The notes below the pieces were generated by a model, which had not been told where the DNA came from, searched no databases, and worked only from the letters and a program-made list of their open reading frames with translations. Below are positions 5,490 to 55,545 of a stretch of 64,000 bases of DNA, piece by piece; position 1 is the first letter of the stretch, and each line of letters starts with the position of its first letter. Where the stretch lies: positions 1,781 through 65,780 of the forward strand of contig ADNK01003292.1 of NCBI GenBank assembly GCA_000320545.1. Direction: 5' to 3'. This DNA comes from Bigelowiella natans CCMP2755. Its lineage: Eukaryota; Protista; Cercozoa. A program made the position numbers and the translations under genes.

Positions 5490-5593
5490 GAGACGGATGT
5501 AATGAAATGTTTAAATTTTTTCATGGTCATCCTAAGTAGCTGTGCAAAGCAGCGGCTACAAATATGTACATATGTATACATGTGTATGCATGT

Positions 5594-24300: not shown

Positions 24301-27300
24301 TGGTGCGCTCGCAAATTCCCTCTGAGCGCGACCCGAATGCAATAAAGACAGCTTTTGAACGCGTGGTATCTCCCCTACCCCATGGCGATGTAAAGTTGCC
24401 TGGCGAAGATGAAGGCATGGAGGAATCGGAAGGAAAGCGTAGGACAGCGAAACTCAATGTCTTCTTGCTAAGACCGAAATACCGTCAAATGAGGGAGATG
24501 CTGCAAGAACAGAAGAAAACAATGACAGACGTAATAGCAGACGAAGGGAAACTTGATGGATTTGCCGAGCTTGACGATAAGGCGCTCAACAAGCTTCAGG
24601 GAGCAGAGAGGGAAGAATACGACGAAAAGGTAAGGTTCAAAGCGGAAGTTGAAAGCGCAAAGAAATTCCTGTCCGAATTTGAGGAGATAGAATCGAAGGT
24701 TAGCCTTTTCTACAAGCACCCGGATGTCGAAGAGGGTCAAGATCACATACAGAGAAATCCTGGAGGGCCAGGCTTCCAAAAGCTGCTACTCACGATGAAG
24801 GAACTCGGACACGATGTGCCGCTATCGAGCCTTCAGTGGAATGTACCACGTGGTGCCAATGAAAACAAATACAAGCAAATGACCGCTGAGAGGCGTAAGA
24901 CTCTTGACGATGGCCTGGTGAAGAAACTCACTTCCATTCGGGCTTCTCTTTTCGGCTCCCAAGAACAAAAAGGGCCTGCCACAATGGAAAGTCTGGTGTC
25001 GTGGGTCCGATTCAACAGAATAAGGTATCAAAAGGGGCAGGATTCAAAGGCAGTGATAATGAAGCTCGCACACCATTTAAGGGAACCTTTCCCTGAACAA
25101 AAGAACACCGAGGGTATAGCATTCCCCCCGGTGCTGCTGCAAGCTTACCGGCGCCCAGATTCCTCGCAACAGCTGCGCGGCAAAATCGAGAATTTCCGTA
25201 TCACGCTGCACAACAGTGCCGGTGGGGCGGAGGACGGGAAAGATTCGGGTGGTGATGCAAAGGCTGCTGATGAAGAGGGAGAAGAGGGCAAGCGACCTAA
25301 GAGCTTCCGTTGGACTATTCCGGCCAATTCCTACATCGAGCTCGCTGTGGACTTCTCAAGCACGACTGCAGGCAAGTTCAACTCCCGGTTAGGTTTGATG
25401 GTAGTTGGAGATACGAGAGAATACTCCCTGCTGTGCTCCGGGGTATGTGCGGTGCCTCAGATCTCCCAAGAACCTAGGAGCGTCTTCATGCGTCGCGCGA
25501 AAACGCAGCGCCCAACTTCCATTCTGACCAAGCAGTATGTCATGGACGCTAAGTTCTTCCAATTTGGCCCTCTGTTGATCGGCAAAGACGCCAAGACGCG
25601 AAACTCGAATGACGAGGCCGTTATTGAGGCCCTGAGGAAGACCAACAGCGACACATTCAGAATTACCAACACAGGACTGTTTGACTGCCATGTTGACTTC
25701 TCAATTATGGGCCAGCTAGTCGATCAGACAACGGGCCAGAAAAACGCAGTAGGCGTTGACGCGCATACATTCATTGTAGAGCCGAAGGCACTAGACCTCA
25801 AAGTCGATGAGATGAAGGAAGTAACAGTTTGGGCTTTTCCTACCGAAGCGAAGGATTATAAAGACTCTCTACTGTGCTCTGTTCATGACAATCCTGTCCC
25901 GGTCGTATTTGACCTTGGATGCGAAGGTTCCGCTCCAAAGCTTGAGCTTTCACTTGAAAAGGTGGAATTCTCGAGACTTCTCGTTGGCCAGGTCGACACG
26001 TTGCAGGTCGTGCTGAAGAACCCAGCTAAACTTCCGATTAAATGGGAGATCAAAAAGCCGCAGGGCGAGGACGCCAAAGACTTTGAGAATTTCTTTGTGG
26101 TAAATCCCAGCCTGGGCGGAGTGATGCGACCCATGTCGAGCACCACCCTCATGATTGACTTCCAGGCCAAAGAGGAGAAGAAGGTGGAGCTCGAGCTGAA
26201 CGTCGAGTACCAGGACGCAGAGGAGGTATTCGACATCGAGCGAAAGCCCCTGTTCCTTGTCGCCGAGGCGTTTGAAATGTCCGTGAAGCCTGAGTGGCCC
26301 GAGGGCAATGATGGCATTGACTTCGGCACCATCAAGGTCAACCAACAGATGGTTCGAAACTTCTCGATATCCAACGAGGGGAAGTACCCTATTACATTCG
26401 ACTTCCTCATTAACAATCGTAAAAAACGATTCTACAATGAGATTCTCAAGATTGAGCCCATGTCGGGACGCGTAGAGTCTGGCGAGAAGCAGGAATTCAC
26501 TCTCAGCGCACAGGCGAAGAGGGAAGTCCACTTCAACAATTCATCGGACATCAAGCTGGTAGTGCTCGAGCCTGAGACCCAAGACAAGCAGCCAGCGCTG
26601 CCGATCAAAATGCATTTTAGGAGCGTCTTCAGTAAGTTTGCGATGCTTCCCAATCATGGTGTTGACTTCGGTCCTCTTGAGACAGGCACGGACTCAGAGA
26701 AGCAAATAGAGATCGAGAATGATGGCGTTTTCGACTTCCAGTACCAGATATTCGAAGCCGGCTCTGATGGCGTTGAACCACTGCAAGAAGTATTTGATGA
26801 GAAGAACGCCCCGAACATTGAGGAGGGGGGAGAGTTGGAGCTCGGACCGTTCCTCATCACTGGCATCCGCGGTGTCGTCCCCGCAAAAGGCAAAAAGATT
26901 ATCAAGGTACGCTTCAAGGCCGGAGAGATACGAGAGTACAACCGATCTTTGGAGATTGATATTTGCCAGCGAGATAAGCTTCAGTTCCCTCGTGTTCTAT
27001 ACGAGCTGATGGGTGAGGGCTGTTCTCCAGGAATAGTCGCCAGCAACTACGCCTCTATATTCGAGGAGCAGTCTGTCCTACGTCGGCTCGATCCTCTTCA
27101 TCCTCTAACCAGCAATGCGTTCACGATAGAGGAGCCTGAGAGAGTGTTCCACTTCGCTCCCGTCGTCGCGAATGGGAAGAACCCTTCTCCCAAAGAGCGA
27201 TTCCGCATCAGCAACCCCTACAAGGTGCCTTGCAACGTGTCCATATCTGTCGAGATCAAGGGGGATGAGGGCGGCAAAGGCGATGAGAAGAAGGAACCTG

Positions 27301-30300
27301 CCTTCGTTGTCACCCCAGAAGCCCTGCACATTCCACCGCACGAGCACCGTTTTGCTACGGTACAATTTAATCCGCAAGGCCTTTCCACCTGCACTGCTGT
27401 CTTCACGGCAACAGTAGAACGCGGGACCCACGAGCCCTCCAAATGCCTCACATTTGGCTTGACTGGAGAAGGAATTTTGCCCTCTATATCAGTGGAAGAG
27501 CCTACCGAGCGTGACAGTGAGACCTCAGCTGTTCTCCTGAATTTTTCCAGGATGCCACTGCTCAAGAATGATAAGAATACTAAGACCAAAACAATCGTTC
27601 TACGCAACGACATGACCGTGCTTGCAACAGCCCGTTTCGATATGGACGATACGACCCAATTCTCGTTCAGCGGGAGGGGTAAGCTCATCGATCTCAACCC
27701 TGGGGAGTCGGTGAAGCTCACGGTAGATTACCACCCGTCTGAGGCCGGTGTCCACGACGTGAAAATTGCCATGAAAATCCTGCAAAATCCATTTGAAATG
27801 ACGGCGTTTAGGCTGCTGGGCGAATGTTTCGAGCAGGATGTGACCTTGGAAGGCCTTGACATGTCCGAATCCAAGGGCGATGAGCTACAGTTTGGTGACG
27901 TAGTCATTGGAAAAACGGTCGTGAAGACCTTCAAGATGGCCAACACCTCCTCACTCGCTCATCGCTTCGAGTGGAAGGAGGACGATATTCCAGGGCAGTT
28001 TAAGTTCATTCCACGAATTGGTCATCTGCAACCCCAGGAGAGCAAGGAGATACGGGTTAGCTTCATGTCCGAAGAAACTAGTAAGTTGGAGGACCAAAAG
28101 GTGTCTTGCACAATCAAGAAGATCAAATACGTGGAGGAAGACGCTAAAGACGGCGAGGAAGAGAAACAAAATGAAAATAAAGAGGGGGCAGCTGAGAGCG
28201 CGAAGAAGACTGTCAATTGGGATGACACAATGGAGGCGGATGAGCCTAACTTCGAGGAGGTTGAAGACGAAAACAAAGATGCAGAAAATCCGGGTCTCGA
28301 TTTAGTCATGCATGCAGTAGCGGATAATAGTCGCTACGAATTGGACGAGACCATCACCAAAATGCAAAATCGAATTACTTTTGCTCCGACCATGATGTTC
28401 CAGAAGCGCACATTCCGGTTCACCCTTAAGAACAAGTCCACGATAAGCATGCCATTCTCGTGGCGATTCGGCGAGACCGGCGACGAATTCAAGCCAGAGA
28501 GCTTTGTGTTCTCTGACGAGTCAAATATGGACGACGGCGAAGAAGGCAGTATGAATGCAGCCGAACCAAAGAGCCTGACCCTCTGGGAGATTCGTGGTGT
28601 GAAGGTTGACGACAGTAAAACGTTTAAGATCACTCCCTCCAATGGGGTCATTGAACCCCTGCAGGACCAACTGTTTACTGTGCAGTTCTCGCCTATGAGG
28701 GCGTTGCATATGGAGAAGATGCTAGGAGGATTCATCAAGCACCTAACCAGTGACCAAAAGCAGCCAGTAATCTCTTTCACTGCGACCGGATTGCGTCCCA
28801 AATGCCACTTCGAATTGGTTAATTCGGACTATCTCCAGGCCGGCAGGAGGCCTGCAGATATGCGCGATACGCAGGGAAGACTGGGTGCTCTTGACCCACT
28901 CCAATACCGTGTTCTTGAGTTCAAAAGCCTCGGAACGCAGGTGCGCAATACTCGCAAATTCTACGTAGTAAACCCAACGAATCAGGATTACAGCTTCCAG
29001 TGGGTTTTCGAAGGCGTATCGATGAAGGGCAGCGACGGGAAAACCGGGGCAATACCGAACCCATTCAGGTGCCTAACTTCTCAAGGTGTTGTTATGGCCG
29101 GTCGTAAGGCGGAGATCGTGTTCGAGTTCTTGCCTCAATTCGAGCAACTCACGGAAAGCTACTGGCAGTTCCGCATTCCTGAGCAAGACATATACGTTTC
29201 AATGTTGATCGTTGGCCAAGTGGTGGAGCCTGACGTGATTCTTGACCGCACGCACATAAACTTCCGCCACATGCTGCTGGGCGCACGTTCCAAGGAAACG
29301 TTGTATCTTATTAACAACGAGCACCTGCCGTTCAGCTATCAGATCAATTTTGAGCAGGAAAACAAATCGCGCCCTGTCCTGGATATTTCGCCTGCGAGTG
29401 GCGTGATACCGGCGGAATCTCGGATTCCCTTGTCGGTGGTGTTCAGGCCAAGAGCGGAGAAGGTCTATAACTTCAATGTCGAGTTTGACATCAAGAAGAA
29501 GCCAGGGAAAGTGTCGCTCAACGTGAAGGGCCAAGGTTTCCGGATCCTTTCGCTTCTGGAGTACCAAGAGGCAGACCCATCGGGCTTAAATGTCGCTCGG
29601 AAGATTATGGAGCCTGATATGGTGAATCGGTTAGATTTTGGAGTGAGCTACGTCTGTGAGACCCGGGTCAAGCGTCTTTCTTTGACAAACGCCGGCCAAT
29701 TCCCCTTCGATTTTGAATGGTCCTTAGGAAACAGTAGATTCCTGGCTGCGAAGCCGCCGAGAGGTAAGCTGCAGAAGGGCGATACAGCAACAGTAGATCT
29801 CATCTTTCACTCAGAGAGGGAGGTGTCATTCAATGAGCTTCCGATATATCTCAATATTGGGCCGCAACGCTACACTGTTAGCCTGAGCGGTCGTGCAAAG
29901 AAGCCACGGCTACACTTCTCATTCCAACGATGGAGCTTCGGGCCTTGCTTTCTCTCACGGGAGGGAGTGCCCAGTGCTTCACACGAACTGACGGTTGTAA
30001 ACAACGAAGTGACGAACATAGAACTGGATTGCAACTTCCAATCTCAACCACATCTCACGATAGAGCATCAGGCGACGGTTCTGGCACCTGGAGAGTCGAT
30101 TCAGTACCCCATTAAATTCTTCCCTCAGGAGATTCGCAAGTACCGCGACGAGGTGCTCTTCGAGGTTAATGGTTCGTATAAGGTCCCTGTCATCATTGCC
30201 GGAGAGGGTGTTCCTATTCGCCTAGCCTTGCTCAAGGAGTCGGATAAATTGGTCAATCTCGGGGAGATTCGCAGCGGGCAGCAAAGCGTACGCATCATAC

Positions 30301-31873
30301 AGTTGGCCAACTTGAGCCGTATTGCAGCCAGATTCAAACTCACTGTCCCAGAGGCTGTTATCAGTAGGATCAAGAAACTCCACGGAATTTCGGATGATAA
30401 GAAGGACGCCAATTCGGAGATGAGATTGGCAACAATTATGGAAGATCCCCTCTCCAGTCGCCTTGACGAGTTCTGCGTGCGGTATCAGCCCACGTCGTTC
30501 GTGACTTTGAGACCAAAGCAGAACGTAAGATTCGAGTTTATATTCAACCCCGACCGTCCCATGCCGAAGTTCAGAGAGGACGTTCTGATCGACGTCGTAG
30601 GCCAGACGCCGCAGAAGCTCCTCACTCTCGCCGGGGCGTGCTTTGGTATTGGAGCACGCTTAGATACCAACTCAGTGCCCTTCGGCCCCATTGTCGAAGG
30701 AACGAAGCTCGTGAAAACTGTTCTGTTAGAAAACATCGGAGAAGCTGGTATCAGGTACTCGTGGCAAACGGGGTCGATCAAGCCTAACTTCACCATTAAG
30801 CCCGAGGACGGATTTGTTCCACCAAAAGAGCGTGTGAGCATTGAAGTCACTTTCCATCCTGTCGCTCTGGACAACGACATTCGCGTGGATAAGGTGCCGT
30901 GCTTGATTGACAAGCAAATCCATCCCAACATGAACATCACGTTGACCGGAGCCTGCGTGGTGGCAAAGAGCTCGTCCGAGAAGCTTTTGTTCAGCTGTCC
31001 CGTGCGCCAGCCACAGAAGAAGACCGTGTCTGTGCAAAACACCACTCCCAACGATTGGGATGATCTCAAGGTGCAGATCAATAACCCTTACTGGTACGGA
31101 AAGAAGGAAATTAAGGTTCCCGCCAAGTCAGAGGTCAAGTACGATATTTGGTACAAGCCGCTCTCCATGACCGCAGCAGAGGGTGGGGGGGGTAACGCTC
31201 CACCTGCGGATGTGAAAGATGGAGGTGCGGCGTCGTCGTCATCCGAATTTAAGCGGCCTGACAAGCACAGGGGGAAGCTGTTCTTTGCCCTTCCGAACGG
31301 TAAAGCGATTCTGTATGAGCTCGAAGGTACAGCTTCTGAGGCGTCTCCTGAGAAGAAAATAGAAGTCAAGTGCAAGTGCAAGCGCACGGAGATGCAAGGA
31401 TTGCTGGTCAACAACTGGCTCAACACGCACCAGGGCTTTGACGTGAAGATCGACGTTGGCGGAGATGACAAGTCCGTTCAGGTTACGGGGCCTAAGTCAT
31501 TAGACGTGCCTGAGATGTCGAGCCGAGAGTATAAACTCAAGTTCTTTGCCTACAGAGCTGGGACAACAAACGTGTCTGTGACCTTCACGAATCCAAAGAC
31601 GAAGGAGAACGTCAGGTATGAGCTCGAATTCGTCGCCGGGGATGTGCAGGAAAAAGTGCTGCCATTGCTGGAAACGTGTGTCCGGAGAAGGAAAGTCATC
31701 GGCGAGGAGATATATAACCCTCTCGACGAGCAAGTGACGGTTTCGTCGTTCTCGTGTGAAGATCCTGGGGTAATATATTAATTATGAAAACAAATATTTA
31801 TTGATTCTTCATCGCAATCAACACTAAATTTTATCGCCTTGATCTAATCTATCTGTTACCGTATTCCCCCCTC

Positions 31874-31916
<43 letters not shown>

Positions 31917-32042
31917 TTCGTGCTCGCAGATCTTTGTGCAAACACCCATCGTCGTGCCTCCTAAAGGGTCCTCAAGAATCAAGATCGTATATAACCCATT
32001 GGTGGTGTCAGCTCGCAAGGATGGCGTGGTAGTAAGCCCTAG

Positions 32043-32089
<47 letters not shown>

Positions 32090-32096
32090 CCCTATC

Positions 32097-32133
<37 letters not shown>

Positions 32134-33046
32134 TTCTAATACCATTCTGCCCAATTTGTCAGAAATTGTCAGTTGCAAGCGAGCAGCTGGGAGAGTTCGT
32201 TTATAGCCTCTCCTTGAGTGCGACGGAAGCTGGCACGGACACTACCATGCGCTTCACGACTGATCTTGGAAGTCAAGCAATCCAGACGTATCACTTCCGC
32301 AGTTTCGCTACAGAGGTACTATTAATTTTGCGCACGTTGATGATGTTGAGGGGGTTAGGGGGACGCGATGCCCAACGCGAAGTGGTTGAATATTTGCCTA
32401 AAAAAATCATCATCGCCATCATTGATGTTTTCAAACTTCAGGCCGCTGATGCGGAATACGAGTGCGAGATCAAAGGTTCCGAGTTCACTGTGCCGACCAC
32501 AGTTACCGCCAAAGTGGTTGCTGCGGGCTCGGATGGAGCCGACACCGCTGTAGATGTGTGCTATGAACCTTCGAATATGGGCGGAGTAAGGGACACTCTT
32601 GTGATCAAGTCCAAAGGCAAAGCCGGCATGTTCCAGGTAGCACTCATTGGAAAGTGCGATAAGCCAAAGCGCAAAGGACCTGTGGAGGTCAAGGCAGGAA
32701 GCTCGGCTACGATCGAATTCAAAAATGTTCTTAGCGAAGATGCGGAGTACACGTTCTCCATTAACAACCCTGCATTCACTCTTGGATCCACAACTGCCAA
32801 GGTATTATTCGTAACGTGCTGATAGCATGGTGTGCGGAGTAGTTTCAATCCTTAGCATCCGTAGTTGCTCCCTCATCGAAGACCTCACGATGATTCTGTT
32901 CTCAGATTGCAAAGAAGGATAAATGCAAGATTTCAATATCATATTCACCGTCCGAGGATAGCCCCGGATTTGACGTTGGAAACCTGCTAATTGTGTGTAA
33001 GAAAATGAAACATCCTTGGATATATTACGTTCGCGGCAGCAAATGA
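16962..33046 (+). CDS. HYDIN: Hydin, axonemal central-pair protein (multiple ASH/PapD-like Ig domains plus adenylate-kinase-like P-loop region), multi-exon
   Basis: N-terminal QPLFEATP..I..QEYDPFGVY.I.I.LRNRDKVARRV and TEREKFVIPVRA; 509-aa and 3882-aa ORFs with repeated Ig-like units; GGPKAGKT P-loop; PQISQEPRSVF and FQFGPLLIG; terminal exon ...WIYYVRGSK* (stop 33044-33046). Confidence 0.95.
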
Positions 33047-33482
33047 TGTTTTTTTAATGTCAAAACTAGTTTGTAATTTCAGCAGTAATCAATGCTAATT
33101 TTACGATTTACTATGACATGATGATGATTCAACTGGAGCTGGCACCGTAACTTATGAAACAAAGATGCCATCGTCCAGTTGTTCATCTAGCCATCGCAAC
33201 TCCATGGAAGCGCCACAAGTAATGTTAGCTGCACGCTGAATATGAGAATCTAAATACCTGCGCGCAGAACAAGTTGAGCGCATACTAGCATGTGCCGTCT
33301 GTGGACGCGCCGCCATGTATGCGACAGATGTATTGATTAATTTAGATTTCATCAGTAGTCATCCTACGACTCATACTTTCCTGCGCGCTGCGCACGTATC
33401 ATGTACTATGATATCCTAGATTGTCTCTACTATGTACTACAACACGTAATGCAAGCAGCCGTCATCCATCTAGCTTGCGTAT

Positions 33483-33695
33483 GAGACGGATGTAATGAAA
33501 TGTTTAAATTGTTTCAATGGTCATCCTAATGCGTAGCTGTGCAATGCAGCGGCTTGCGTATGCATTCATCTTCAGCGCTTTGGCCATGATAGATGCATGG
33601 CAGCTCCTGCACGACTGTGCTTTATTTGTAATAATTTACATAGCTTGATGACTAATGAAAAAATTTAATCACTTCACATCATGCATATCCGCCTC
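33483..33695. mobile_element. MITE-like element (~210 bp): inverted pair of the GAGACGGATG repeat
   Basis: + copy at 33483-33555. The reverse complement from 33695 reads GAGGCGGATATGCATGATGTGAAGTGATTAAATTTTTTCATTAGTCATC (degenerate). Confidence 0.5.
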
Positions 33696-34039
33696 TTTGT
33701 ATGGCTTGCTAGACTGCCGATCGAAGATGTACATTTGTCACATGTGGCAAAGCGTCGCATTGGCCCCTGCTACCTGCTACATGCTGACTTAACATCCGTG
33801 CATGCAATGTGCAGCGCTGTTGCGGCATCGCATCGCAGGCACCTGGTGCTGCACTCCCCCTGCTCGGCTGTTTAGTATGCATGTAGCAGGTAGCAGGGGC
33901 CGCGCCGTGCACGCGCGCACAGACAAAGGATTCGCTATCAGAAGCTAGCTAGCGAAGTGAAGCTGCAGAATCTGACACAATGCAGCACGAGGGAATCACG
34001 AAAGTTGAAATTTCCTCACCATGCAGTCGAGGTAGTCTT

Positions 34040-36580
34040 CTTCCTCACGGGAGCGGTGCAGACTCTTGACGCATCTTTGAAATGTGCAACGCATTGCAAT
34101 GAACTTTTCAACGCACATTGAAAACAGGCTTTCTAGCTTTCACCATGCTGATGTGCATCACCTCATCAGCACATGCTGGCATGCATGTTGAGAACAAGGT
34201 GTGGAAACTGCACATTCCAGCACGTTCGTCTAGTTCGTGCGTGCGCACGCTGGCACGCGCCACATGCCAGCATGGCCTCAAATGGCCACATGGATGCGAA
34301 CACACCCTCCTTTGCATGCTCTTGCGCGCTTTCTTGACCTCTCTAGCTCCACTGTTGTCCTTGCGCCCGTCTCACATGTGAAGATGGTTTGGAAGCGAAG
34401 CTGAACCATCGATCATCAACTGTCCTCATTGAAAACCATCATCATTGTCATCTTCATCATCATCGTGAGCTGGCACGCAATTGGAGTTTGCGTGGACTTC
34501 ATCCCACCACGCCAGCATGTGGGCCTGAAGCGAAGAAGAAGAAAAAGAAGTTGAGAGGGGCAGAGATGGCATTGACGAATCATGGTTTGCCCTGCAGCAA
34601 GCCAGCAAACAATGAAAGAATGACAATGAACTGCATCTCCAAAGTGTTGCAAGACACTTGCAGTGCACGAAACGCAGTGGCCTCGAACTAGCTTCAGTCG
34701 AGGTCAAACGCACTGGTGAAACCAGCAGGATTTCAAATGAACAATGAACAATGACGCTCTGACCCTGGGTTGGAGTCTGTTCCTCCATCGGTTGTCACCT
34801 CTTTCGATGCTGTCGTTCCAGCAAGATTCCATTTTCACCATTGTCGCCTTGGGTGAGGAGGGTGCGACAACAGATTTTGTCAGATTTTCTCTAGTTTCCA
34901 ATTTTCCTTCAATTTCTTGGGAATTCCCCCTTCAATTTGATGAAAATGGCACTTGGCGAACACCAGGAATGGCAACGTCGGAAACAACCAACCCCATCTT
35001 CGCTGAATTTTTCACCTTCGCGCTGTGGAAATCTGCACCCTCGCCGCCCACGAAAGAATGGAGAACGACGAGCAGTTTGAGAACGTGCCTCCGCACTTCG
35101 TGTGCCCCATCACCCAGGAAATCGTGAAGAACCCAAACGTGAATGAGGTGGGGCAGACTCACGAATGCGAGAGCATCGTGGAGTGGTTTGCAATGGGGCA
35201 CCGAACCGATCCTTTGACGAGAAAGGAGATCAAGAACGTGCGATTGCTCACACCGAACCAGGTCCTGAAGGCACAGATGTTGGAGTGGAAGCAAAGCTGC
35301 CCGCAGGAAAGACTTGCTGAGTTGGAAAAGAAGAGAAAAGTGAGGGAGCGAGATGACTGCAAGCTTGCGTGCGAAACACGTTTCAAACTTGACCAGAAAA
35401 CCGTCAGCGGCAACAGCAGCAAAAGCGAAGAGCCTGTGCCCATCAACAACTCTTCACTTGCAGCAGGTGAGGATGTGAAAGCGGACGATCTGCCCCCAAA
35501 TTCCGAAGATTGGTCGACTGCTCAATCAGCAGCTTTCATGCGAACGCTGGGGAAGGGCGCCGCCTGGGAGCGATGTGCCAAATTGTGCATGGATGAGGAC
35601 CTCGACGGCTCAACTCCAGTCGATGCAAAAGCAGAGACTCTGCAGGAAGTGGGACTTGGCAAAGTTCATTCCGAAAAGATCTTGAGAGAGATCAACAAAG
35701 CAGCAAGTCGACAGGTGCAGGCTGCGGTCGCAGGCATCTCGATTCCACTTCTTGAGAAAGATCCAAAGCGAATGGAACTGTTTGGCGCGCAAGACAAAGT
35801 TCTCAACGACTGCGAGGCCAAAATCCAAAATGCACTCACTGAATTCCTTCAAGAAAGCGAAACAGAGAAGTTGCAGTTGGAAGCTGAACTCACGAAAGTC
35901 AGAGAACACGTGGAACGTGTGACAACGTCCACGCTAGCCGCGAGGGCATCAGCAAAGAAAACAATTGTGGAAGATTTGCAAGAAGCATTGTCCAAAGTTC
36001 AGAATCCAAAGAAAGAGTTCAAAAGAACAGGCGTCATTCTCAACACACAAGTCTCAAATCCAAACATCTCAGACTGCACAGATTTGGAGCACAAGCGAAC
36101 CGAACGAACGAAACAAATCATGTCGTCGACCCAAACAGTGCTGGAGAGGACTGTGCCACACGTCACGGAGGCGCCAATGCTGAGAATCGAAAGCAATGCC
36201 CTTTGCAAGCAGCCAATGGCTTCTCCATCATTTGCGGTTGCAACGTCTGAAACAACCTTTGAGCCGAGGTGCACTCCAGAATCAAAGGAACGTGAGCGAA
36301 TTCGAATGGAAGAAGAACAAAGAAGGAGGGAAGAACAAAGAAGGAGAGAAGAACAAAGAAGGAGGGAAGAACAAAGAAGAAGAGAAGAACAAAAAAGAAG
36401 AGAGGAAGAAGAGAAAAAGCAACAAGAAAAACTCTGCCGCGAGGGAAGACGCGCCAAAAATCATCCACAACGGCACACTGGAGTGTGGTTCTGTCAACCA
36501 ATGACTCAACCAATCTCACACAGGGATGGATGCATTCAAATTTTGTGTCACTTTCAAATCAACATCTGCAGAACAATGTG
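34040..36580. other. Core TpA desert (only six TpA, all in CTAG)
   Basis: Manual scan found CTAG at 34133, 34230, 34343, 34688, 34891 and 35934 and no other TA. Flanks (33050-34040, 36580-38350) are partially depleted. Confidence 0.9.
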
Positions 36581-36602
36581 TACTACTCAAAATGTCGTTT
36601 GA
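35058..36602 (+). pseudogene. U-box + SAM-like + coiled-coil ORF, hypermutated (no Tyr), probably non-functional
   Basis: U-box PPHFVCPITQEIVKNP...GQTHECESIVEWF...TDPLT...LTPNQVLK has His where consensus G.TYER has Tyr. SAM-like WSTAQSAAFMRTLG...EDLDGSTPVD...LQEVGLGKVHSEKILREI follows. Confidence 0.75.
36312..36402 (+). repeat. 18-bp coding tandem repeat (EEQRRR) x5
   Basis: GAAGAACAAAGAAGGAGR units. Confidence 0.9.
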
Positions 36603-37141
36603 GTGTGGAACCTGATGGTTGTTGGTGAATGTGTGTTGTGTTACTTTGGTTTTGATCATCAACCCATGGGTGTTGCTGCTTTGATTTGGCTTCATCTGGT
36701 TTTGCTGCTTTGGCGTTCACGGCTTAGCCTGTAAGTGTCCGATTAGATGAGACATTTGATGTTTGTCATTGTTTGATTCTAGACAACAATCGTTTGTAGC
36801 ATGTGTGAGTCACAGTACGATGGTACGTCTCGAACATTGAGTGATAGCAAATCTTTTGTTTCTGTCATTGGATGTGTGTGGTGTGAGTTGCATGGAGAGA
36901 TTCAGTGATGTCGTTTGTTTGAGTGCGGAACCTGATGGTTGTTGGTGAATGTGTGTTGTGTTACTTTGGCTTTGATCATTAACCCATGGGTGTTGCTGCT
37001 TTGATTTGGCTTTATCTGGTTTTGCTGCTTTGGCGTTCACGTCTTAGTTTGTGAGTACCCGATTAGATGAGATATTTGATATTTGTTATTGTTTGATTCT
37101 AGATAACAATCGTTTGTAGCACGTATACGTCACAGTACGAT
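36597..37141 (+). repeat. Direct duplication of ~225 bp (36597-36821 and 36917-37141; 320-bp offset)
   Basis: Ungapped manual alignment, 18 mismatches. Confidence 0.95.
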
Positions 37142-37771
37142 AGGAAGTGTGGAATGTTGTTAAATGCAGTTTGGGTGTTTTTGCATTGGAAGGGCTCTTG
37201 TTGAGCAAAGGTTCACGATCCGGGAGTTGGTCTGCTGAGCAGGGGACAACAATTGAAATTTTCCGCTCGGTGCCCTGCTGGTTTCAGCCAACTCACACAA
37301 TTTCTAGTCGATGGTCGAAGTTTGTGCAATGCATGCTAGATCACGTGGCACCAGAAAGAGGTGAACAAAGACAGCAATCCGACAGAAGTTTCACTTCCGA
37401 TTCAAAAGGTAGCAATCACATGGATTCATTTGCTGAATGAAAAAGTCTTCATGGTCAACTGCTCTCTTTTTCGAGATGGAGCAACTTGTTTGCATTTGCG
37501 CAGCTGTGCACCAGTGCACGTGTTCATCTGCCAATGCAACCTTTGCGGCTCCATTTGTGTGCTTATCTGATTAGCGCATGTGTGTTCATTGCTCAGTTCA
37601 CAATGTGTGAATGCATTTGGCACACCTGTTCTCCATGTTGGTGTGCACATTGCACACATGGTGCATGTTTGCACATGTGAACACGTGAAACCAATTGATT
37701 GAAAGCTGTGACGAATGAAAACGATGACGAGACGAAACGTCTGACTGAAGGCTGAAAATGCATGCATGATC

Positions 37772-37851
37772 GAGACGGATGTGATGAAGTGCAAGCGATT
37801 GAATCTTTTCAACAATGGTCATCCCAATGTTGTCATGCAAAGCAGCGAGCT
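37772..37851 (+). repeat. Copy E of the GAGACGGATG repeat, TA-converted
   Basis: GATGTGATG and ATCCCAAT replace GATGTAATG and ATCCTAA found in other copies. Confidence 0.75.
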
Positions 37852-38353
37852 ACGATGCACGGCGCTCACGGCATGTCCTTTTTGTCTCTTCTGCCACACG
37901 TTTCATGCATTCAAAACTAGAAAAGCATCTGCATTCAGTCGTCGATGTCGTGCAGTGCGCGCAGCAGTTTTTGCTTCTTTTTCTGCTTCAGTGCAGTGGG
38001 CTTGTCTCATCGTTTCGATTCATGATGGGGTTCAAGACTGATTGCGCGTAGCCTGAGCTATTGGTGTTCGTGTGCTTTGCATTGAAGGAGATGATCCATG
38101 TCGCATGGGCTGCGAAGAAGAGTGGTGCTGCTGTGATGGCAGCGGAGGACAGGACACATCTAGACATGCGTTAAGAGGGATGTAGCTAAAAGTCAAACAA
38201 GTGGTTTCTGTTGTTCATCGTTACTGAAGCCATGATGCTAAAGAATGGCATTTGAGATGTCATCAACGCTCGTCATGTTTCATGCAAGCTAGAACCATGA
38301 TACTCTCGTGTCTTGTGCTTTCAAAGTTAACCATACTTTAAAGTGTGCTTCTT

Positions 38354-41300
38354 TCATATCCGAAATGCTTTTAGGTCGTTCTCTTGAGCTGTTGTTGTGA
38401 TTTGACCTTTGACGTCTTGTCGCTCCACCATGTATGATGAAGTTCTTCGTAGGGGGAAATTCGAGTTTCTCTGCGCAGCATCGATTGAATCAGACCTATG
38501 CAAGGTGAGAATCCCTTGTTCAGTGCCGTGAACGGTCTCATTGATCCTGATGCTGGATTCCTGCATCGAGCGCCGAGCCAGCTCCGCCAGCTCTATTTCG
38601 TCAACTACATCGATGGAGAGTGCTGGCGTCTTTTTCTTCGAAATCATTCGATATTGCGTGGATTGGGTGGAGGCGTTGGCTTGGTCGGGCGTGTTGTAGA
38701 CGTTCGGAGTGAAAGGGCCTTGCCCGTTTGAAGGATCGAAAGACAGCTCTACCCTGTGGAAGGCTCTCTGCGCTTTGTGGACTTCATGAGAGAACTCGCT
38801 GTCACTTTCGACCTTCTTCCCCATCACCTTGACCACCTTCCACCCAACTTTGATTGTCGAACTCGTCGACTCCAAGAGGATCTTGTCCACTGTGAGATTC
38901 TTCACGCGAAATCCAAGAATTCCCATTTCGAAAGATCGGAGCACTAGCGTCGTGTCTTTGCCGTCACGGGACCCCACGCGACAACCGAGAGCAACGAAGA
39001 GCACCCCGATGGCGGGGAAGTACCACAGCGAAGAGATGATGAAGATGCGGGTTACACGAGACGCAACGTCAGTTAAATACGACAGTAAAGACGCCTCGAC
39101 CCAACCGTCAGTCTTGTTCCGAGCAACAAAGGCTAAGATTGCAACGACGAACCAGCAGCCGGAGCAAACTATGAGACAAAAGACGATGCCGAAAATATCA
39201 CGATAGTAGTAGCTGAGGTTATCGAGCTCGGGGTTTGCCTTTATATACTCCTTTATAGTTTCAGATACGGACTTCTTAACTTCTGGCGCGTGCTTCACTT
39301 CCGAGCCCAACAGATCAATGATACTTTTTTGCTGCATCGTATTTCTTCCTTGTCGAATCGAATTGCGCTTAGCTTTCTTCTTGTCTTGTTTTTTATTATG
39401 CGGCTTATGCGCCGCTCCCATCTCATTGCCGGTTACCGCCCCAGCAGCTACACCAAGCTTTACTGCTGCCTTTTCTGCACCGTTGCTGGCCTTAACTTCG
39501 CCTCCATCCACGAGATTCTCATCATTTCCATCATCATCATCGTCGTCATCATCCTCTCCGTCCTCATCCTCTTCAATACCTTCCTCAACCTCTTCCATCA
39601 GTTCTTCAGCACCCCCCCCCTCTCCATCCATCGCCGCCCCGGAGTCATCCATGAGCAACAAAAGACAAGCTAGCACGCAGATACAGTAACCCGCCGACTT
39701 GGGAGTCTCTATATGAACCCTGAAATCGTGTGGGCGAATACGCCGGAAGAACATGCCCAAGACAAAGGGAATAGGGAAGGCAAAGAGGAAGGCGATGATT
39801 GCACTCGAATAGACGGACGATCCCAGGAGTGGGAGAGTCTGCTTCTGGCCTTCGAGGAGCGAGGCAATGGTGAGGGAGTTGAAGAGGATGGTGAGGAGAA
39901 TTGTGATACGCTTGAAGCTCAGCATGTAATCTCCTGGATGCCGCATCCATATCGAAGTCCAAGGGTTCGACTGGCTCAATCCCCAATGCAACGACTCCAT
40001 CGTGTTTGACATGTCTCTGCTTCCGTTGACAGAGCGGTACGTTGCGAAGTTGGACTTGCGCCAGAAATCGATGGAATGATAGATCTGAGAACGGCAGTAG
40101 CCATGCGGGGCAGGAAGGAGGAGAGCGGGCGTTACATGTCATGTGGTTAGTTGATGTATCTGTTAGTCAATTGTGTGTGTGTGTGTGTACTTTCGCATGC
40201 AGGCTCTCACAACAGTTCGTTCTTCCACAGATGCAAGCGTAAGACTATAGTCGAAATAAGCTTGATAGTATTTAAGTATTGATTACCGCCATGCTCGTAT
40301 TCCCACGATATTTGTTGTCGATGGAGCACGCATAGAATGAGCCGACGATGTAGCCAAGGACCAGAACAAGGCAGAGAAGCATCACCGGTTGATCGAGTTT
40401 GAAAGCATCGGCTTTGATGTCCTTCGCGCCGAAAGTGTTGATGTTAATCGAGGTCTCATAACTGACATCCGCACTAAACGAGGTCAGATGTGTCGATGCA
40501 CAGCGGATGTAGCCTTCACTGCTTGTCTCGTTAAGCGCGTACACACCATTTGTCGACCAATTTCCGATGGTTTTGTTCCAGAAACGGCACTTGGGCACTG
40601 CAACGAACCCATCTCTTGATGCTACGGGGAGCACGAATATGAACGGCTCAGAGACGCCGTTAATAGATTGCTCGACGCCCCCTTGGGAGACTGTGAGGGT
40701 GAGCTGAGCAGTTGTGTTCTCTTGGCTGAAGCTGGGGAAAAGGGGGCTGGTGGAGGTCGACATCGAGATGTCCGCGTCTCCCGTGAAGTTCAGAGACGGC
40801 GAAAGGGACGTCGAAACGCCGCTTCTTGAACTATTCAACCAAGTGCCTTTGCTAGTGCTTACGCGCTGAGACACCAGCGAGACTGTCGTCGTGGATATTT
40901 CCTGCGCTAGCTCTCCCGCAACTGCTCCTTGGAGTATTCCATTCCCCATCGCTAGGACCGACGCCTGTACTGACTCCGCAGTGCTAATCCATTGAGAAGC
41001 AAGAGGAGGAAGAAAAAGACAGGGAGATATAGGTGGGGCGGAGAGAGGGTGTGCATCAGCATAGGATACTCGTCATACTCACAAAAACATTTGAAATATT
41101 TATCATCTCCTGTTTCCCCTTCCTTTCGTTCGTCTTCAAAAGCATGCTGTATGCGTAGCACGGCTCGAAGATTGTTCTTCATCAGCATTGCCTTCCTAAA
41201 TTACCTGATACGTTCGTCGTCGGAGGCCTCTGCTGTGCCTGTGGCCTGGCTCATGGCTGTTGATACTCTGGAAATCGTCGTCAGCGCAGCAGTCACACTA

Positions 41301-41968
41301 TCGTCCGAGAAAGATTGGAGAGGGCTGGTACTGAGTGACTGCACCATGTTCACGGCCTGCATTCTAGCTGCAGCTTGCATCTCGTTGGGGTTTTGAAAGT
41401 CTGTCACCGAGGTTAGCAGCTTGAGCGGTGTCTTCACTGCCTCCTCCTCGGTGACGAATCCTCCCGTTTGCGTCATGTTTCCGATGGAATATAAAAGATT
41501 TGTTACAGTAGAGGCCTGTTATACCAAAAGTTAGATATGAGGAGACTAAAACGGTGTACGACACACACACACACACACACACCACCACCACCACCACCAC
41601 CAACAACAACAACGAGGACGACAACAAACAACTCGCCCATGAATGTGTTCGCATGCCCACATGCATTTCAAGCACGCGAGCTTATAACTACTACTACTAC
41701 AACTACTCCTCCTCCTACCTTTTGCTCCTCATCGGTTGCCAAACCAGAGTCGCTACGTAAATAGTTTGACGCCCCACTAACAAGCACGGCGAAGGACTGA
41801 ATGTCACCCTCCTCTACCTTCGAGTTGATGGAGCTCTCCACCTCGTTGAGTACAATCGCAATTGAGCGTACAATTACATAGAAATCCTCACTCGTCTCCG
41901 CGCCGAGGCTATCGAGGATACGCGCGCGGATCGTCACCTAATAAAGGCACGCGTGCGTTAAGCATTGG

Positions 41969-42025
<57 letters not shown>

Positions 42026-44268
42026 TGTATGTGTGTATGTGTGTGTGATATTTCCTGTAATTATATTTTCATACGGCGTTTGCATTAAATTATACAGCTG
42101 CTACGACAGGAAAGTGCAACCCACATTTTCGCCTTGCCGTGGCCCCGCGATGAACGTTTTGATCTCCGGCAGCGTTCTGAGCGAAGAGTACGGAATCAGC
42201 TCTTCAGCTTCCCCTTCATCATCCGTGAGTGTCTTCTGCACACTGAGGAATTGATAGAGCAAAGGCATGTCGATATCGTTCCAACCCTCGCACGATAGAG
42301 TAAATTCGGTGCTAAGACTGCTTCCTTCAGCTGGTGAGACCCCACAGCTTCCGAGCGAAGGAGGTCTATTGGTTGTGAAGCTAATGTGGCTTTCAGCTCG
42401 CGTATTTATTGGGCTAACCACCTCCAGCTTAAAGGCGTAGGTAGCGCCTGGTGTGAGAGCAAAGGGCGCGAGGACAAGATTTTGGTCGCTTGAAGAGGAA
42501 AGCACGATAGAAGTGCTATCAAGGTCCAGGTTGTTGCTGCTGCAGCTCCATGCGTAGCTCACCTCGTCGCTGGTAAATAGCTGTACGGATGAAAGAACCC
42601 GGATTTTGCTGTCCACATTAGGCGATACGAGCTTGTTGGTCGAGGCAGCGGAGCCAGTTGCGACTGAAGTCTTGACAATCGGCACCGCAACGGCGGTTGT
42701 AATGATACTCTGGCTCGCAGTGGCGTTTCGAACACCGCTCGAGGAGAGAACAGCGCCCGTGACTTGAAGGGAGAGAGTGTAGTTGCTGCCGGCTGAGAGA
42801 AGGCTCGTTGGCAGCATGAGCTCAGAGTTGTTCGAAGAAGGTACGTAAGAAAGGGAGACTTCTTGCTGTGTTGCAGCTTCCTCTATCTTCCATTGATATG
42901 TGAGCGATGCGCCGGAGGGGTCTGAGGAGCCGGAACCATCGAATTTTACAATGGTGTCGCTACCGTTCACGACGGGGATAATGGCTGCTTCCTGCGCACC
43001 GCTGATTTCAGCGGAGACCGACTCAAGCACAACCTCCACGATGAACGTGGTGTTTACCTCTCCCACCAACAGCCCGTTTTTAAGCATCCGTGCGCGCATG
43101 ACAAAGCCATACGTGTCGCCCATTGCGAGAGTGTCGGGAGCAATTTGGAGGTTTACGGAATTCGACTTTGCTATTGTAACCACGTGGTTTGAGAGAGATG
43201 AGATGGTCACACCAGAAGGGAGGCCTAGCAGGGAAGGCGGTGCTGTTGTTGCCGACGTGATCTGCTCCCAAAGGCATACCGCTACATTGGAATTCGAAGT
43301 CGATGACGAGTTGCACGCGGGGGGGGCAACCTTGGTGAGGATGGAGACAGCTTCAGAGCGGCGAATAGAAAAGGAGCGCCGCCCAGGGATGGAGACCACG
43401 GGAACGAGAGCATCGACCTTGAGTAACGTGGCCGTCGCGTTTGAGGATGACCCAAGCCAGTTAGTCACAGATACAGCGAAGGTATGGAGACCGGCACTCA
43501 ATAGATCGCCGTTGATAAGGAACTTTGTGCTGTTTCCGGTGCTGCTACTGCTACTACCGGAAGGTGCTAGGGTTGTAATCTCGACAGTCGTTGAGGAGAT
43601 GTACGAATACTCGTACGTCATGGCACGGCCATTTGCTCCTGTGCTTTCGCTCGCAATAAGCTCCACGACGTCGCACGCACCGACTGTTTGTGGGGCGATC
43701 AGTACAGCGTTAGCAACGGGGGGAGACGAGGGCGGCAATACCTGGTTAAAGACATTGAAGTGAAGCAAGATGGCGAAAATTAAGTGTTGAGGCTTCATTT
43801 TACTGCGCGTTCTAAGAGCATTGAAGCAGAAAATGCATACGTATGGTTACCGTGAGAGTGGTGGCGACAACAGGTCCAGAGGTGCCCGTGATATCCCGGA
43901 TCTTATCCGGTAGCAGTCGAAGATGACCTCCTAGCGAACACGTGAAACCCCGCCCTACACTAATAAGCAACACTGTTGTCTGCGTCCACATGCAAGTTGG
44001 CTGAGACCCCAAGAGATTCAAACTAGCGGCGGCGATAAGCAAAGAGCAGTCTGTGCTTTCTGGTGTGTCGGTGGGCTTCGTAAAAACGATTTCGATGCCT
44101 GTGACATCATCCAGGAAACGGGCATTGAGGGCACTAGGAGGCTCAATCGTAGGGGCGGCAGTGGCTGGTGAAGCTGTTTGAGGCGACAGAGTTGTGCCTA
44201 AAATGTAATTGATTGTGGATAAGACGGGATGAAGGCAGAGTCTACATGATGTAAATACTCTCTCTTTC

Positions 44269-44325
<57 letters not shown>

Positions 44326-45412
44326 AGCACAAATTTTTTTCGCGTTTCTCACCTGGAACCGTAGGTGCTCCAGAGACTGGCGAGGCTGTAGGCGAGATAC
44401 TCGAGGGACTTGCCGAGGGTCCAAATGTAGGTGTTTGCGATGGCGAGGTCGTCGACGGTGTCGATGTGGGCAAGTTCGACGGCGATGCTGAAGGTGTATT
44501 CGTTGGTGCCATGGATGGTGACGTCGTCAATGGTGAAATTGAAGGTGACCTAGACGGTGACACGGAGGGTGATACTGATGGCGATACAGAAGGCATCACG
44601 GATGGTGACGTCGTCGATGGTGAAATTGAGGGTGGCCTAGACGGTGACACGGAGGGTGATACTGATGGCGATACAGAAGGCATCACGGATGGCGACGCCG
44701 TCGATGGTGAAATTGTAGGAGCCATAGACGGCGGTAGTGACGGTGATGCTGATGGTGATACCGAAGGCATCACGGATGGCGACGCCGTCGATGGTGAAAT
44801 TGTAGGAGCCATAGACGGCGGTAGTGACGGTGATGCTGATGGTGATACCGAAGGCATCACGGATGGCGACGTTGTCGATGGTGAAATTGTAGGAGCCATA
44901 GACGGCGGAAGTGACGGTGATGCTGATGATGATACCAAAGGCATCATGGATGGTGAAATTGTCGATGGTGAAATGGTAGGAGCCATAGAAGGCAGTAGTG
45001 ACGGTGATGCTGAGGGTGCAATGGTAGGGCCAACCGTGGGACTCAGCGTGGGAGTAGACGTAGGATTGGGGTTGTGGGAATGGGGGTTGTGGGAATGGGG
45101 GTTGTGGGAATGGGGATTGTGGGAATGGGGATTGTGGAAATGGGGATTGTGGGAATGGGGATTGTGGGAATGGGGATTGTGGGAATGGGGAGTGTGGGTA
45201 TGGGGAGTGTGGGTATGGGATTTTGATGCAAGTACGCCAGCGAAAGCCCGTTGCTTATGGATAACTTCGCGAGAATCCTCATGCAAATGGGTGGCAGAGT
45301 GGAGGTGTTGAGGCGTCGGATAGGGTGTGGTGTTAGGTTCAGGAAAGGGGGTTGACGATACACTTTGTAGCAGCGCCAAAGCGATGAGCACGATGCGCTC
45401 CATTCTATGCAT
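38354..45412 (-). CDS. Polycystin-1/PKDREJ-like membrane protein: signal peptide, His-rich and S/P/T repeats, REJ region, GPS motif, several TM helices, C-terminal PDZ-like segment; multi-exon
   Basis: REJ-type NRPPSLGSCGVSP.EG..LSTEFTLSCEGWND.D.PLLYQF; GPS motif CRFWNKTIGNWSTNG...IRCASTHLTSF followed by a TM; hydrophobic helices in ORF 38354-40012. Confidence 0.85.
44490..45015 (-). repeat. Coding S/P/T mucin-like tandem repeat, 87-bp (29-aa) period
   Basis: SPSLPPSMAPTISPSTxSPSVMPSVSPSA units; identical blocks at 44701 and 44788. Confidence 0.9.
45066..45220 (-). repeat. 15-bp coding repeat (HTHTP/HSHNP) x~10
   Basis: GGGRTTGTGGGAATG units on the + strand. Confidence 0.9.
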
Positions 45413-46000
45413 TCCACACCATCTGCCTTTCATCTGCTTTCGCAACGCAGGGACGAAACGGGAAATGATACTAGATCACAAGAGAAGGAAGGGTCATGCA
45501 GAGAGAGTGGAGGGAGTTATTGATTATTGTTGACGACGATGAGATGGTGCGTGCAGAGATGGTGACGGGTGTTTCTGGTCAGTTACTGGTTTGCCATCGG
45601 AGCAAGCGATGAGGGTTTTACCTGCTGCGACAACAACAAAAAACAGATTTACAGCGGATATGGCCGGAGACAAAAACCAAAATTCTGCAAAACCGCAGAA
45701 GAGAAAAATGCATCTAGTCTACGACGATGGCTGCTGCTAAAAATGCCTAGATCTAGTTCCAGATCTAGTAGTAATCCCATTTAGTCATCACTCCGTTTAG
45801 GGAAATCTTCCAAAAACAATTCAACTAAAAACTCTCTGAATGCAGAGTGGACCTAGGCATCATCGGGAAAATACCTATGTTTTTCTCCTGCGACATGAGA
45901 TTTGTGTCGCAGGATTGGAATAGCCTGCTTGCAGCTTTCTCAGCCCCAGCATGCCGAAAGACGACACCGCCGGCAGCAGTGTTCGGGGAGAGCTAGAGCA

Positions 46001-47354
46001 ATGGCAAGCGGAGGGGACGATGGTGGAAGCAGCCGTGGGAGTGGCAGGCCACAGTTTGTGCTTAGGGGACACAAGGCTGCTGTTAACACCGTTTCGTTCG
46101 TATCCGTCAATCAGCAAATGCATATTCTCTCCGGGTACTCGACAGCGCCGTGTCCTTTCCTTGCAGTGCTGTGTGCGAAATTCTTCTTCGTTCCTTCTTT
46201 AAGTATGCTTGGTTTATACTCGTTTCAGATCCCAAGATGGCATCGTGAAGCTATGGGACCTGACAAGCCGCCGTGCTAGGACTACATTCGCTGCTCACGA
46301 TGGGAGCGTGCTTCAGGCGACACTTCTTAGTGGCTTTCAAATGATAACTCAAGAGAAGGGAGGAACTATTCATCTTTGGGACTGTGCTAGTGAGCTGAAA
46401 GGGGCATCTCCATCTCAGAGATCAGGGCATATCTCCAGCAGCACTACTCCGCAGAAAATACAAACCTTTGACACCAGATCTTATGGATTTTGCCGGTGCG
46501 CGTCCAAAGAACAATCAGGAAAGCGTATGTTGCTTACAGCTTCGGATTCACGATCTAAGCTGCTGCTATGGGACCTCAAGTCCTCGAAACCAATACAAAA
46601 GATATCCCTGACTACGGGGCGGGAAGACTTTGGCTTGACCACGCACGTTTCTTTCTTAGGAAACGATTCTATGGATACCATCTGCTGGGGCAGTGAAAGC
46701 GGGCATATTGGCTTCTACAGCCTCACTGCTGCTCGCTCTATCGCCAAAGGAACACTTGAGAAGCAACCTGTAATGAGTGTATCGTGCTTACCAAGTAAAA
46801 CAGGGGCACTGGGTTTTGCAGGCGGGGCTCTCGGAGAAATCACGGCTTTCTCTGTAGATTTCAATCAGGTTGAGTCTCTCTTCCTATCTTCCTCCCTCCC
46901 CCCCCCCCCCCCCCTCTCTTTTTGCATGGCCCCGTTACTTAACCACCATAGTCGTTTAACGTTATAAGACAAATACACCGCTGTGTAGGGAAAAGTGGAA
47001 ACGCATCAGAAGGTAAAATATGGAGACAAAGGCATTTCTGAGGTGAAGATACGGCACGATTCAAGAATCTTTGCCACAGCTGGTTGGGATCATCGCGTTA
47101 GAATTTTCAACTCAAAATCGATGGAGCAGCTCGCGATTCTTAAGTACCATTCGCAAAGTGTTTTCTGTGTTGACTTTGGCCCTTCGAGTGAGGGATTCGT
47201 TGCAAGCGGATCCAAAGACTCGACAATTGCGGTTTTCAAAGTCTACCCGAGCAAGAAGAAAAAGAAGACCAACAAGACGAAGAAGCCGCAGCAGGAGGGA
47301 CAGGGAGCGTTGGAAAGGAACCCTGATGATGTTTCAGAGCAAAAGAAGGCCTAG
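46001..47354 (+). CDS. WD40 protein, GNB1L/ASA1-like, 3 exons
   Basis: N-terminal PQFVLRGH..AV and C-terminal GISEVKIRHDSRIFATAGWDHRVRIF...LAILKYH..SV.CVDF...ASGSKDSTIAVFKVYP; introns at ~46135-46228 and ~46869-46989. Confidence 0.85.
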
Positions 47355-55172: not shown

Positions 55173-55545
55173 TTCTATTCTAGTGACTCTGGATGCAGAT
55201 TTTATCAGAAATGTAATGTAAATTTATACTGCGACAAAGTATAGTGATTGTCTTAGAAGCTGATGGAGTCCCTGTAGCCATTATTTCCCAAGAAAGTTGA
55301 GTAAATTCAGACTAAGTCTGTGGATATATCTGGGACGAAATTATGACAGGATGGTTGATGCGTCGCAACAATAACTACAATTTTCCTAATTTGGCAATCA
55401 TAATTCACGCCCCCGCCCCATCGTTAGATCTATGGCGAAACGTGTTGGAGCTGGGATTGTGTTTGGAGTTGACTTATAACATTGCCATGTTACCAGCCAG
55501 CAGTAGTTAGGACCTCCATCTTCGCACCAGCTCGGCCTTTCAGTG

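What the first reader, a model, noticed from the sequence alone, without database searches (positions are those of the whole stretch)
36597..37141. Internal control: a duplication records the mutation spectrum and its gradient
Seen: of 18 mismatches between the two ~225-bp copies, 10 are TA versus TG/CA (36660, 36693, 36733, 36737, 36753, 36761, 36767, 36784, 36805, 36807). Nine of these have lost TA in the copy nearer the TpA desert and one in the distal copy. All ten are TAA/TAT/TAC on the edited strand and none is TAG, whereas 4 of the 6 TAs shared by both copies are TAG. Inference: editing continued after the duplication, targets TAH and weakens away from the core.
Basis: seen in the sequence. 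Interest (0 to 1): 0.82.

Follow-up and report, generated by a model that had tools for sequence, protein, structure and literature searches.

The report
Duplicate records algal TA-erasing mutator
In what is likely the marine alga Bigelowiella natans, one of two side-by-side copies of a 240-letter stretch has lost most of its TA steps to TG or CA, likely through a host mutation process already reported in that species, but the spared copy lies between two heavily mutated blocks, so the damage is patchy and does not simply fade with distance.

Summary
Counts confirmed exactly: 18 mismatches, 10 TA vs TG/CA, 9 with TA in copy 2. The duplication is real: short-read contigs bridge it. Two further genomic copies polarise the sites: two are shown TA losses, four more are inferred losses, three are merely consistent, and one (36660) is probably a TA gain. 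Homologous proteins give the same direction for the neighbouring U-box gene: 11 of 11 aligned tyrosines are lost. So 'editing after duplication' holds. The gradient does not: just beyond copy 2 TA collapses again for 1 kb. A/T flanks favour loss and CTAG resists. The process is already described in Bigelowiella natans (bioRxiv 10.64898/2026.01.13.699255), and this scan noted it, with the CTAG bias, on other pieces of this genome. Added here: a position-versus-sequence control, and a single-copy eukaryote-type gene that is saturated while a multi-copy repeat is largely spared, which argues against RIP-like homology targeting.

The parts
36597..36839 (.). Copy 1 of the direct repeat; displaced copy lacking the family's native flanks; 8 TA steps that copy 2 keeps read TG/CA here
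36917..37159 (.). Copy 2; sits in the flanks seen in other genomic copies; keeps 15 TA steps in the 225-bp core, lost one at 37053 and probably one at 37155-6
36840..36916 (.). Spacer between the copies; bridged by a 288-bp short-read contig (36663-36950) with no differences
33951..36580 (.). Saturated TpA desert: 7 TA steps in 2630 bp (6 CTAG, 1 GTAG); abrupt left edge
35007..36602 (+). Open frame of 531 codons (stop to stop) with a U-box domain (residues 27-96) and no tyrosine; about single-copy depth over most of its length; no RNA reads in the one RNA run laid; stop codon lies inside copy 1
35025..36880 (.). 1856-bp segment (U-box frame, copy 1, part of spacer) that another genomic copy of the repeat appears to lack: contigs join 35024 to 36881 (only 27 letters on the short side)
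   Evidence: joints table, three DNA runs
37166..38150 (.). Second TpA-depleted block distal to copy 2: 9 TA steps in 985 bp, o/e 0.13-0.14
33480..33554 (.). Unedited copy of a very high-copy short repeat left of the desert; a diverged copy at about 37772-37829 shows TA to TG/CA differences
33762..33901 (.). 140-bp inverted-repeat element (MITE-like) at the desert's left edge; keeps its TA steps

Best explanation
The two copies are a real duplicate inside a 4.2-kb TpA-stripped block, and most of their differences are likely TA steps that copy 1 lost to TG or CA after the copies split, likely through the host TpA mutator already reported in Bigelowiella natans, whose enzyme is predicted to be an adenine deaminase. 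Shown: the differences, the reality of the duplicate, and TA as the majority state among genomic copies at 36693 and 36733. Inferred: A in TpA is deaminated on either strand and read as G; sites with A/T flanks (ATA/TAT) go first, G/C-flanked sites last, CTAG hardly at all. Inferred: the mutator acts on delimited patches of silent DNA set by position or chromatin state, not on sequence identity between copies and not along a smooth gradient. The same sequence was hit where it was displaced next to the saturated U-box segment (copy 1) and largely spared in its native position (copy 2 and, as far as contigs show, the other copies).
For: Outgroups: 36693 T in 3 contigs vs copy 1 alone C; 36733 G in copy 2 alone; a 60-bp contig at about double depth over 36739-36798 with 4 differences from copy 1, the number copy 2 has there (36753, 36761, 36767, 36784), so one more copy likely keeps those TA steps. 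Copies 1 and 2 share alleles at 36675 and 36705 against both other copies. Proteins: 18 of 53 substitutions against P0007 and 7 of 37 against P0018 are explained by TA to TG/CA, vs 4 and 1 by CpG decay and 0-8 by five control rules (pooled p=9e-5); 11 of 11 aligned Tyr lost, 8 to His or Cys, including the U-box T-Y-E tyrosine. Four CA/TG doublets between the window and other copies, with CpG o/e 0.73-0.83 in the desert. Copy 1 lost 8 of 8 ATA/TAT-containing sites and 0 of 7 other TA sites (post hoc). Tetramer o/e in the islands: CTAG 1.8, CTAC 0.71, GTAC 0.58, all others 0-0.2. The preprint saw de novo TpA to TpG/CpA changes directly.
Against: Site 36660 has CA in copy 1 and both other copies, so it is probably a gain of TA in copy 2. 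Three sites (36737, 36805, 36807) are polarised only by matching difference counts. The four-copy tree is unrooted. Eight non-TA differences imply a split up to about 5e7 generations ago at the published background rate, whereas the published active rate would remove 8 of 11 sites in about 1e5 generations (my assumption of 50-60% AT), so editing here was brief or slow and nothing shows it is ongoing. The species name rests on earlier notes and a chlorarachniophyte-level match. No deaminase was tested. The tetramer background is unedited window DNA, not the island's ancestor.
Confidence: 0.8

Rival explanations
1. Editing spreads from the desert core and fades with distance, so copy 1 was hit more than copy 2 only because it is nearer. 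A weaker form: two separate cores with fading edges and copy 2 in the trough between them.
For: Non-CTAG TA counts per 100 bp rise from 0 to 2, 1, 4, 3, 2, 7, 7 between 36501 and 37200; the far right edge (38001-38400) also recovers gradually; copy 2's distal tail differs from another copy by further TA/TG changes (read by eye from the loose ends).
Against: The count drops from 7 to 0 at 37201 and stays near zero for about 800 bp; the left edge goes from 46 D-TA-H per kb to 0 within about 200 bp; in copy 1 the sites nearest the core survive and the lost ones lie at 36693-36807.
Confidence: 0.2
2. Copy 1 was edited at another locus and arrived with the 1856-bp U-box segment, or copy 2 was refreshed by gene conversion from an unedited copy, so the pair is not a same-place, same-age control.
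For: The repeat has at least two more genomic copies, and one appears to join 35024 to 36881 without the segment.
Against: Copies 1 and 2 share 36675 G and 36705 C against both other copies, and copy 2 has private alleles (36650, 36660, 36729, 36733), so it is not a recent convert of those copies.
Confidence: 0.15
3. TG/CA is ancestral and copy 2 gained TA by ordinary C>T mutation (or the differences come from CpG-type decay).
For: The genome-wide bias outside hypermutable regions is towards AT (2.65); site 36660 fits this direction.
Against: TA is the majority state at 36693 and 36733 and is likely shared by another copy at four more sites; 11 of 11 aligned Tyr are lost in the adjacent gene; CpG is not depleted; the context excess is significant.
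Confidence: 0.03
4. The duplicate is an assembly artefact, or the TA loss is a sequencing or RNA-editing artefact.
Against: A 288-bp contig with no differences runs from copy 1 through the spacer into copy 2 in three DNA runs, the same joint stands in all four runs, and both copies have their own single-depth contigs; changes are on both strands of DNA.
Confidence: 0.01

Closest known systems
TpA hypermutation of integrated viral and other foreign DNA in Bigelowiella natans (Mettrop et al., bioRxiv 10.64898/2026.01.13.699255; read parts 1-4 of 5 of the text plus a term search; supplements closed)
   Same: A>G / T>C at TpA on both strands; TpA-poor, CpA+TpG-rich island of a few kb; silent in the RNA run laid; acts on single-copy DNA
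   Different: The target here is a repeat carrying a eukaryote-type U-box gene, not a recognisable virus (the paper does mention host-type domains and transposons among depleted genes). The main text has no occurrence of 'CTAG', 'trinucleotide', 'flanking', 'context' or 'gradient', so flank bias, edge shape and the duplicate control are not covered there; its supplements may bear on this.
Repeat-induced point mutation (RIP) of fungi (as described in the preprint's discussion, and recalled)
   Same: Localised, dinucleotide-specific transition hypermutation of repeat-associated DNA
   Different: Opposite direction (RIP makes TpA from CpA); RIP hits both partners of a duplication, whereas here one partner is spared and the adjacent single-copy gene is saturated
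TadA/ADAT2-type adenine deaminases acting on DNA, and ADAR (as cited in the preprint)
   Same: A>G outcome with a preference for T/U before the A
   Different: No enzyme was identified or tested here; the changes are fixed in genomic DNA on both strands, unlike RNA editing

Membership tests
B. natans TpA hypermutation (Mettrop et al.) | Host is Bigelowiella natans | tested here: inconclusive
   Nearest named relative of the HYDIN gene is in the chlorarachniophyte Amorphochlora amoebiformis (cluster of P0001, 45% identity); species name comes from earlier notes; no whole genome held
B. natans TpA hypermutation (Mettrop et al.) | TpA to TpG and CpA transitions, both strands, TA ancestral | tested here: met
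B. natans TpA hypermutation (Mettrop et al.) | [quoted passage not shown] | tested here: inconclusive
   3 of the 4 windows 34001-38000 meet both; 35001-36000 has rho TpA 0.02 but CpA+TpG 1.31 (my formula and framing)
B. natans TpA hypermutation (Mettrop et al.) | Target of viral origin | tested here: not met
   U-box gene with an expressed eukaryotic relative (P0018, MMETSP transcript, 67% over 118 aa); the only PHROG match is to the low-complexity repeat. The paper also admits non-viral targets
B. natans TpA hypermutation (Mettrop et al.) | Ongoing rate about 1000-fold above background | not testable with these tools
   No run-specific TA change seen in the six DNA runs laid, but so few sites give no power
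B. natans TpA hypermutation (Mettrop et al.) | Transcriptional silence of the target | tested here: inconclusive
   Depth 0 over 34870-36365 in RNA run X21 while both neighbouring genes have reads; one run, 6% of it read
Fungal RIP | C>T transitions creating TpA | tested here: not met
   Direction is TA loss
Fungal RIP | Both partners of a duplication are mutated, unique DNA much less | tested here: not met
   Copy 2 largely spared; U-box frame at about single-copy depth is saturated. Copies under 80% alike would be missed
Fungal RIP | RID/DIM-2 methyltransferases and a sexual stage | not testable with these tools
   No genome held
CpG methylation decay | CpG depletion; CG to TG/CA explains the changes | tested here: not met
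   CpG o/e 0.73-0.83; explains 5 of 90 substitutions vs 25 of 90

The most novel reading that the evidence does not exclude
The roughly 250-bp segment of copy 2 is a protected footprint (the promoter or a protein-bound cis-element of the repeat): it keeps its TA steps in its native position, just upstream of a stretch that another copy transcribes, but the same sequence was edited once displaced. The TpA mutator would then be steered by local chromatin or occupancy with edges sharp to about 100 bp and not by homology, and could destroy captured eukaryotic genes as well as viruses; spared segments would map functional elements genome-wide.
Probability: 0.25. Interest if true: 0.62.

Novelty: new member of a known kind. 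Interest (0 to 1): 0.38.

Why it matters
An adenine-directed genome mutator in a eukaryote is unusual and its enzyme and targeting rule are unknown. The process itself is in a 2026 preprint and was noted on other pieces of this genome, so this locus is not a discovery. Its value is as a constraint: identical sequence fared differently by position, a single-copy gene was saturated beside a spared repeat, edges are sharp, and flanks matter (A/T favoured, CTAG resistant). Those are testable fingerprints for the candidate ADAT2-like deaminase and for how targets are chosen.

Tried and rejected
No whole genome is held, so other copies could be seen only as difference tables from short-read contigs. 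Two scans of metagenome contigs for DNA of the U-box gene or of P0007 found no relative (593 and 592 pattern matches, none confirmed), so no DNA-level outgroup for the gene. Rfam gave 0 matches in 33000-38600. The sigma-70 scan is irrelevant for a eukaryote and found nothing above chance. A SAM-like look of residues about 165-235 is recalled only; Pfam did not confirm it. Earlier-findings look-ups by sequence and near this place returned nothing. Five paper searches: only one paper on this process (others seen as listings only); passages of PMC13384257 gave nothing on deaminase flank preference. A second-tier CpA target was considered from a few non-TA T>C changes and dropped: contexts are mixed, and 5 of 7 AT>GC transitions gives p=0.06. 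A helitron or LTR identity for the repeat was considered and not established.

Full report
Observation. The window is eukaryotic: microsatellite-rich, with a long HYDIN-like reading frame at 18498-31781. The repeat is there: 36597-36821 and 36917-37141 align without gaps at offset 320 with 18 mismatches; the ten listed sites are TA vs TG/CA, nine with TA in copy 2, and 4 of the 6 shared TA steps are followed by G. Ten of 16 transitions being TA-type exceeds the expected share of 0.31 (p=0.009) and the 4 of 30 seen in two control repeats outside the islands (p=0.0016). The repeat extends to 36839/37159, which adds a TA/TG mismatch in TAG context at 36822 and a CA/TG doublet at 36835-6.

Setting. 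TpA o/e falls to 0.09 in 33951-35024 and 0.01 in 35025-36580, where only six CTAG and one GTAG remain; it is 0.52 in copy 1, 0.80 in copy 2 and 0.13-0.14 again in 37166-38150. The core holds a 531-codon open frame with a U-box domain and no tyrosine. The nearest named relative of the HYDIN gene is in Amorphochlora amoebiformis; earlier notes of this scan name the genome as Bigelowiella natans and pointed to the preprint. I did not confirm the species myself.

Is the duplicate real? Yes. A 288-bp contig with no differences runs from 36663 through the spacer to 36950 in X1, X11 and X14, and the same joint appears in all four runs. These are short-read contigs, possibly of the assembled strain; no long reads were available.

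Direction. One search shows two more genomic copies (contigs 36613-36740 and 36645-36740, 9 differences each). At 36693 three contigs have T and copy 1 alone C: loss in copy 1. At 36733 copy 2 alone has G: loss in copy 2. A 60-bp contig at about twice single-copy depth (461 vs about 250 in X1) covers 36739-36798 with four differences from copy 1, the number copy 2 has there, so another copy likely keeps TA at 36753, 36761, 36767 and 36784 (inference from depth and counts). Sites 36737, 36805 and 36807 are consistent by difference counts only. Independent support: against P0007 (207 aligned residues before the low-complexity repeat) 18 of 53 substitutions fit TA to TG/CA, against P0018 (116 residues) 7 of 37; CpG decay fits 4 and 1, five control rules 0-8. 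All 11 aligned tyrosines are lost, 8 to His or Cys, including the T-Y-E tyrosine of solved U-box domains. Among the 40 differences I classified from the tables (one search listed 40 of 168 rows), four CA/TG doublets stand between the window and other copies; with CpG undepleted they imply independent editing of an ancestral TA.

Context. All ten variable sites are D-TA-H on both strands (10/12 vs 0/4, p=0.008). Finer: copy 1 lost 8 of 8 sites containing ATA or TAT and none of 7 other TA steps (post hoc). Across three depleted stretches, survival ranks CTAG 1.8, CTAC/GTAG 0.71, GTAC 0.58, ATAG and CTAA about 0.2, the rest under 0.1 (background is unedited window DNA). GTAC reads TAC on both strands yet survives, and TA/TG differences occur on TAG-reading strands at 34919, 34971, 58533 and 36822 (these last two not polarised as losses). 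So 'TAH, never TAG' is a bias; both flanks matter. This agrees with earlier notes on other pieces of the genome.

Gradient. Not supported as stated. Non-CTAG TA steps per 100 bp climb from 0 to 7 between 36501 and 37200, then drop to 0 and stay near zero to 38000: 12 D-TA-H in 258 bp vs 1 in 985 bp (p=8e-8). The left edge is abrupt, and the sites closest to the core survive. After removing 36660 the asymmetry is 8:1 (p=0.04), and with the doublet 9:2 (p=0.065). The duplicated segment is a spared island inside a depleted block. A two-core version of the gradient is not excluded.

Mechanism. Most likely the TpA mutator of the preprint (bioRxiv 10.64898/2026.01.13.699255; parts 1-4 of 5 read), which observed 230 de novo TpA to TpG/CpA changes in two integrated viral regions at about 6e-7 per site per generation, found 124 depleted clusters genome-wide, and proposed an ADAT2-like deaminase without testing it. 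Here it hit a repeat carrying a eukaryote-type U-box gene (relative P0018 is an MMETSP transcript); contigs joining 35024 to 36881 suggest that another copy lacks the 1856-bp gene-bearing segment (27 letters on the short side). The gene is at about single-copy depth yet saturated, while the four-copy segment is mostly spared, which argues against RIP-like pairing (inference; copies under 80% alike would be missed). Eight non-TA differences put the split at up to about 5e7 generations, against about 1e5 needed at the active rate, so editing was episodic or slow. About ten RNA reads bearing another copy's alleles map to 37269-37404 on the + strand, just downstream of copy 2, and none to the U-box frame (one run, 6% read): a weak hint that the spared segment is a promoter.

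Novelty. The process is known in this species and was found earlier by this scan on other DNA. The preprint's main text has no occurrence of CTAG, flanking, context or gradient, and five paper searches found no other description; its supplements were closed and may list this island or the contexts. Verdict: real, direction correct, gradient overstated; a new instance of a known process with useful constraints. Interest 0.38.

Noticed in passing
window 57900-59000: Second, partly edited TpA island (o/e 0.42, survivors mostly CTAC/CTAG) containing a 61-bp duplicate (58513-58573, 58581-58641) with one TA/TG mismatch in TAG context
   Followed up: partly
window 5950-7050: Repeat-like stretch with 24 CTAG in the kb 6000-7000 (background about 2 per kb) and high TG/CA; carries an inverted copy of the high-copy short repeat at 6799-6848
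   Followed up: no
window 33480-33554 (also 5487-5557, 33317-33366, 37772-37829): Short repeat at several hundred times single-copy depth in DNA runs and with RNA reads, some ending in poly(A) near 33523; no Rfam match; possibly a transposon end or SINE-like element
   Followed up: partly
window 34630-34680: Another short repeat at over 100 times single-copy depth inside the desert
   Followed up: no
window 36597-36839 and other copies: Polarisable non-TA differences lean AT>GC (5 of 7 transitions, p=0.06 against the published bias), a possible weak off-target activity or biased conversion
   Followed up: partly
window 37269-37404: About ten RNA reads carry another genomic copy's alleles, so that copy is transcribed while this one seems not to be
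   Followed up: partly
window 18498-33026: HYDIN-like gene with a single open frame of 3888 codons
   Followed up: partly
window 38354-45475 (-): Polycystin-like gene (REJ, PKD, GPS domains) with 87-bp and 15-bp tandem arrays at 44391-45244
   Followed up: no
window 7141-8916 (-), 46203-46967 (+), 55507-57930 (+): Frames matching 60KD_IMP (YidC/Alb3/Oxa1), WD40 and lipase class 3 families
   Followed up: no
window 59564-59789: 120-bp tandem duplicate (95%) outside the islands; 1 of 4 transitions is TA-type; used as a control
   Followed up: yes
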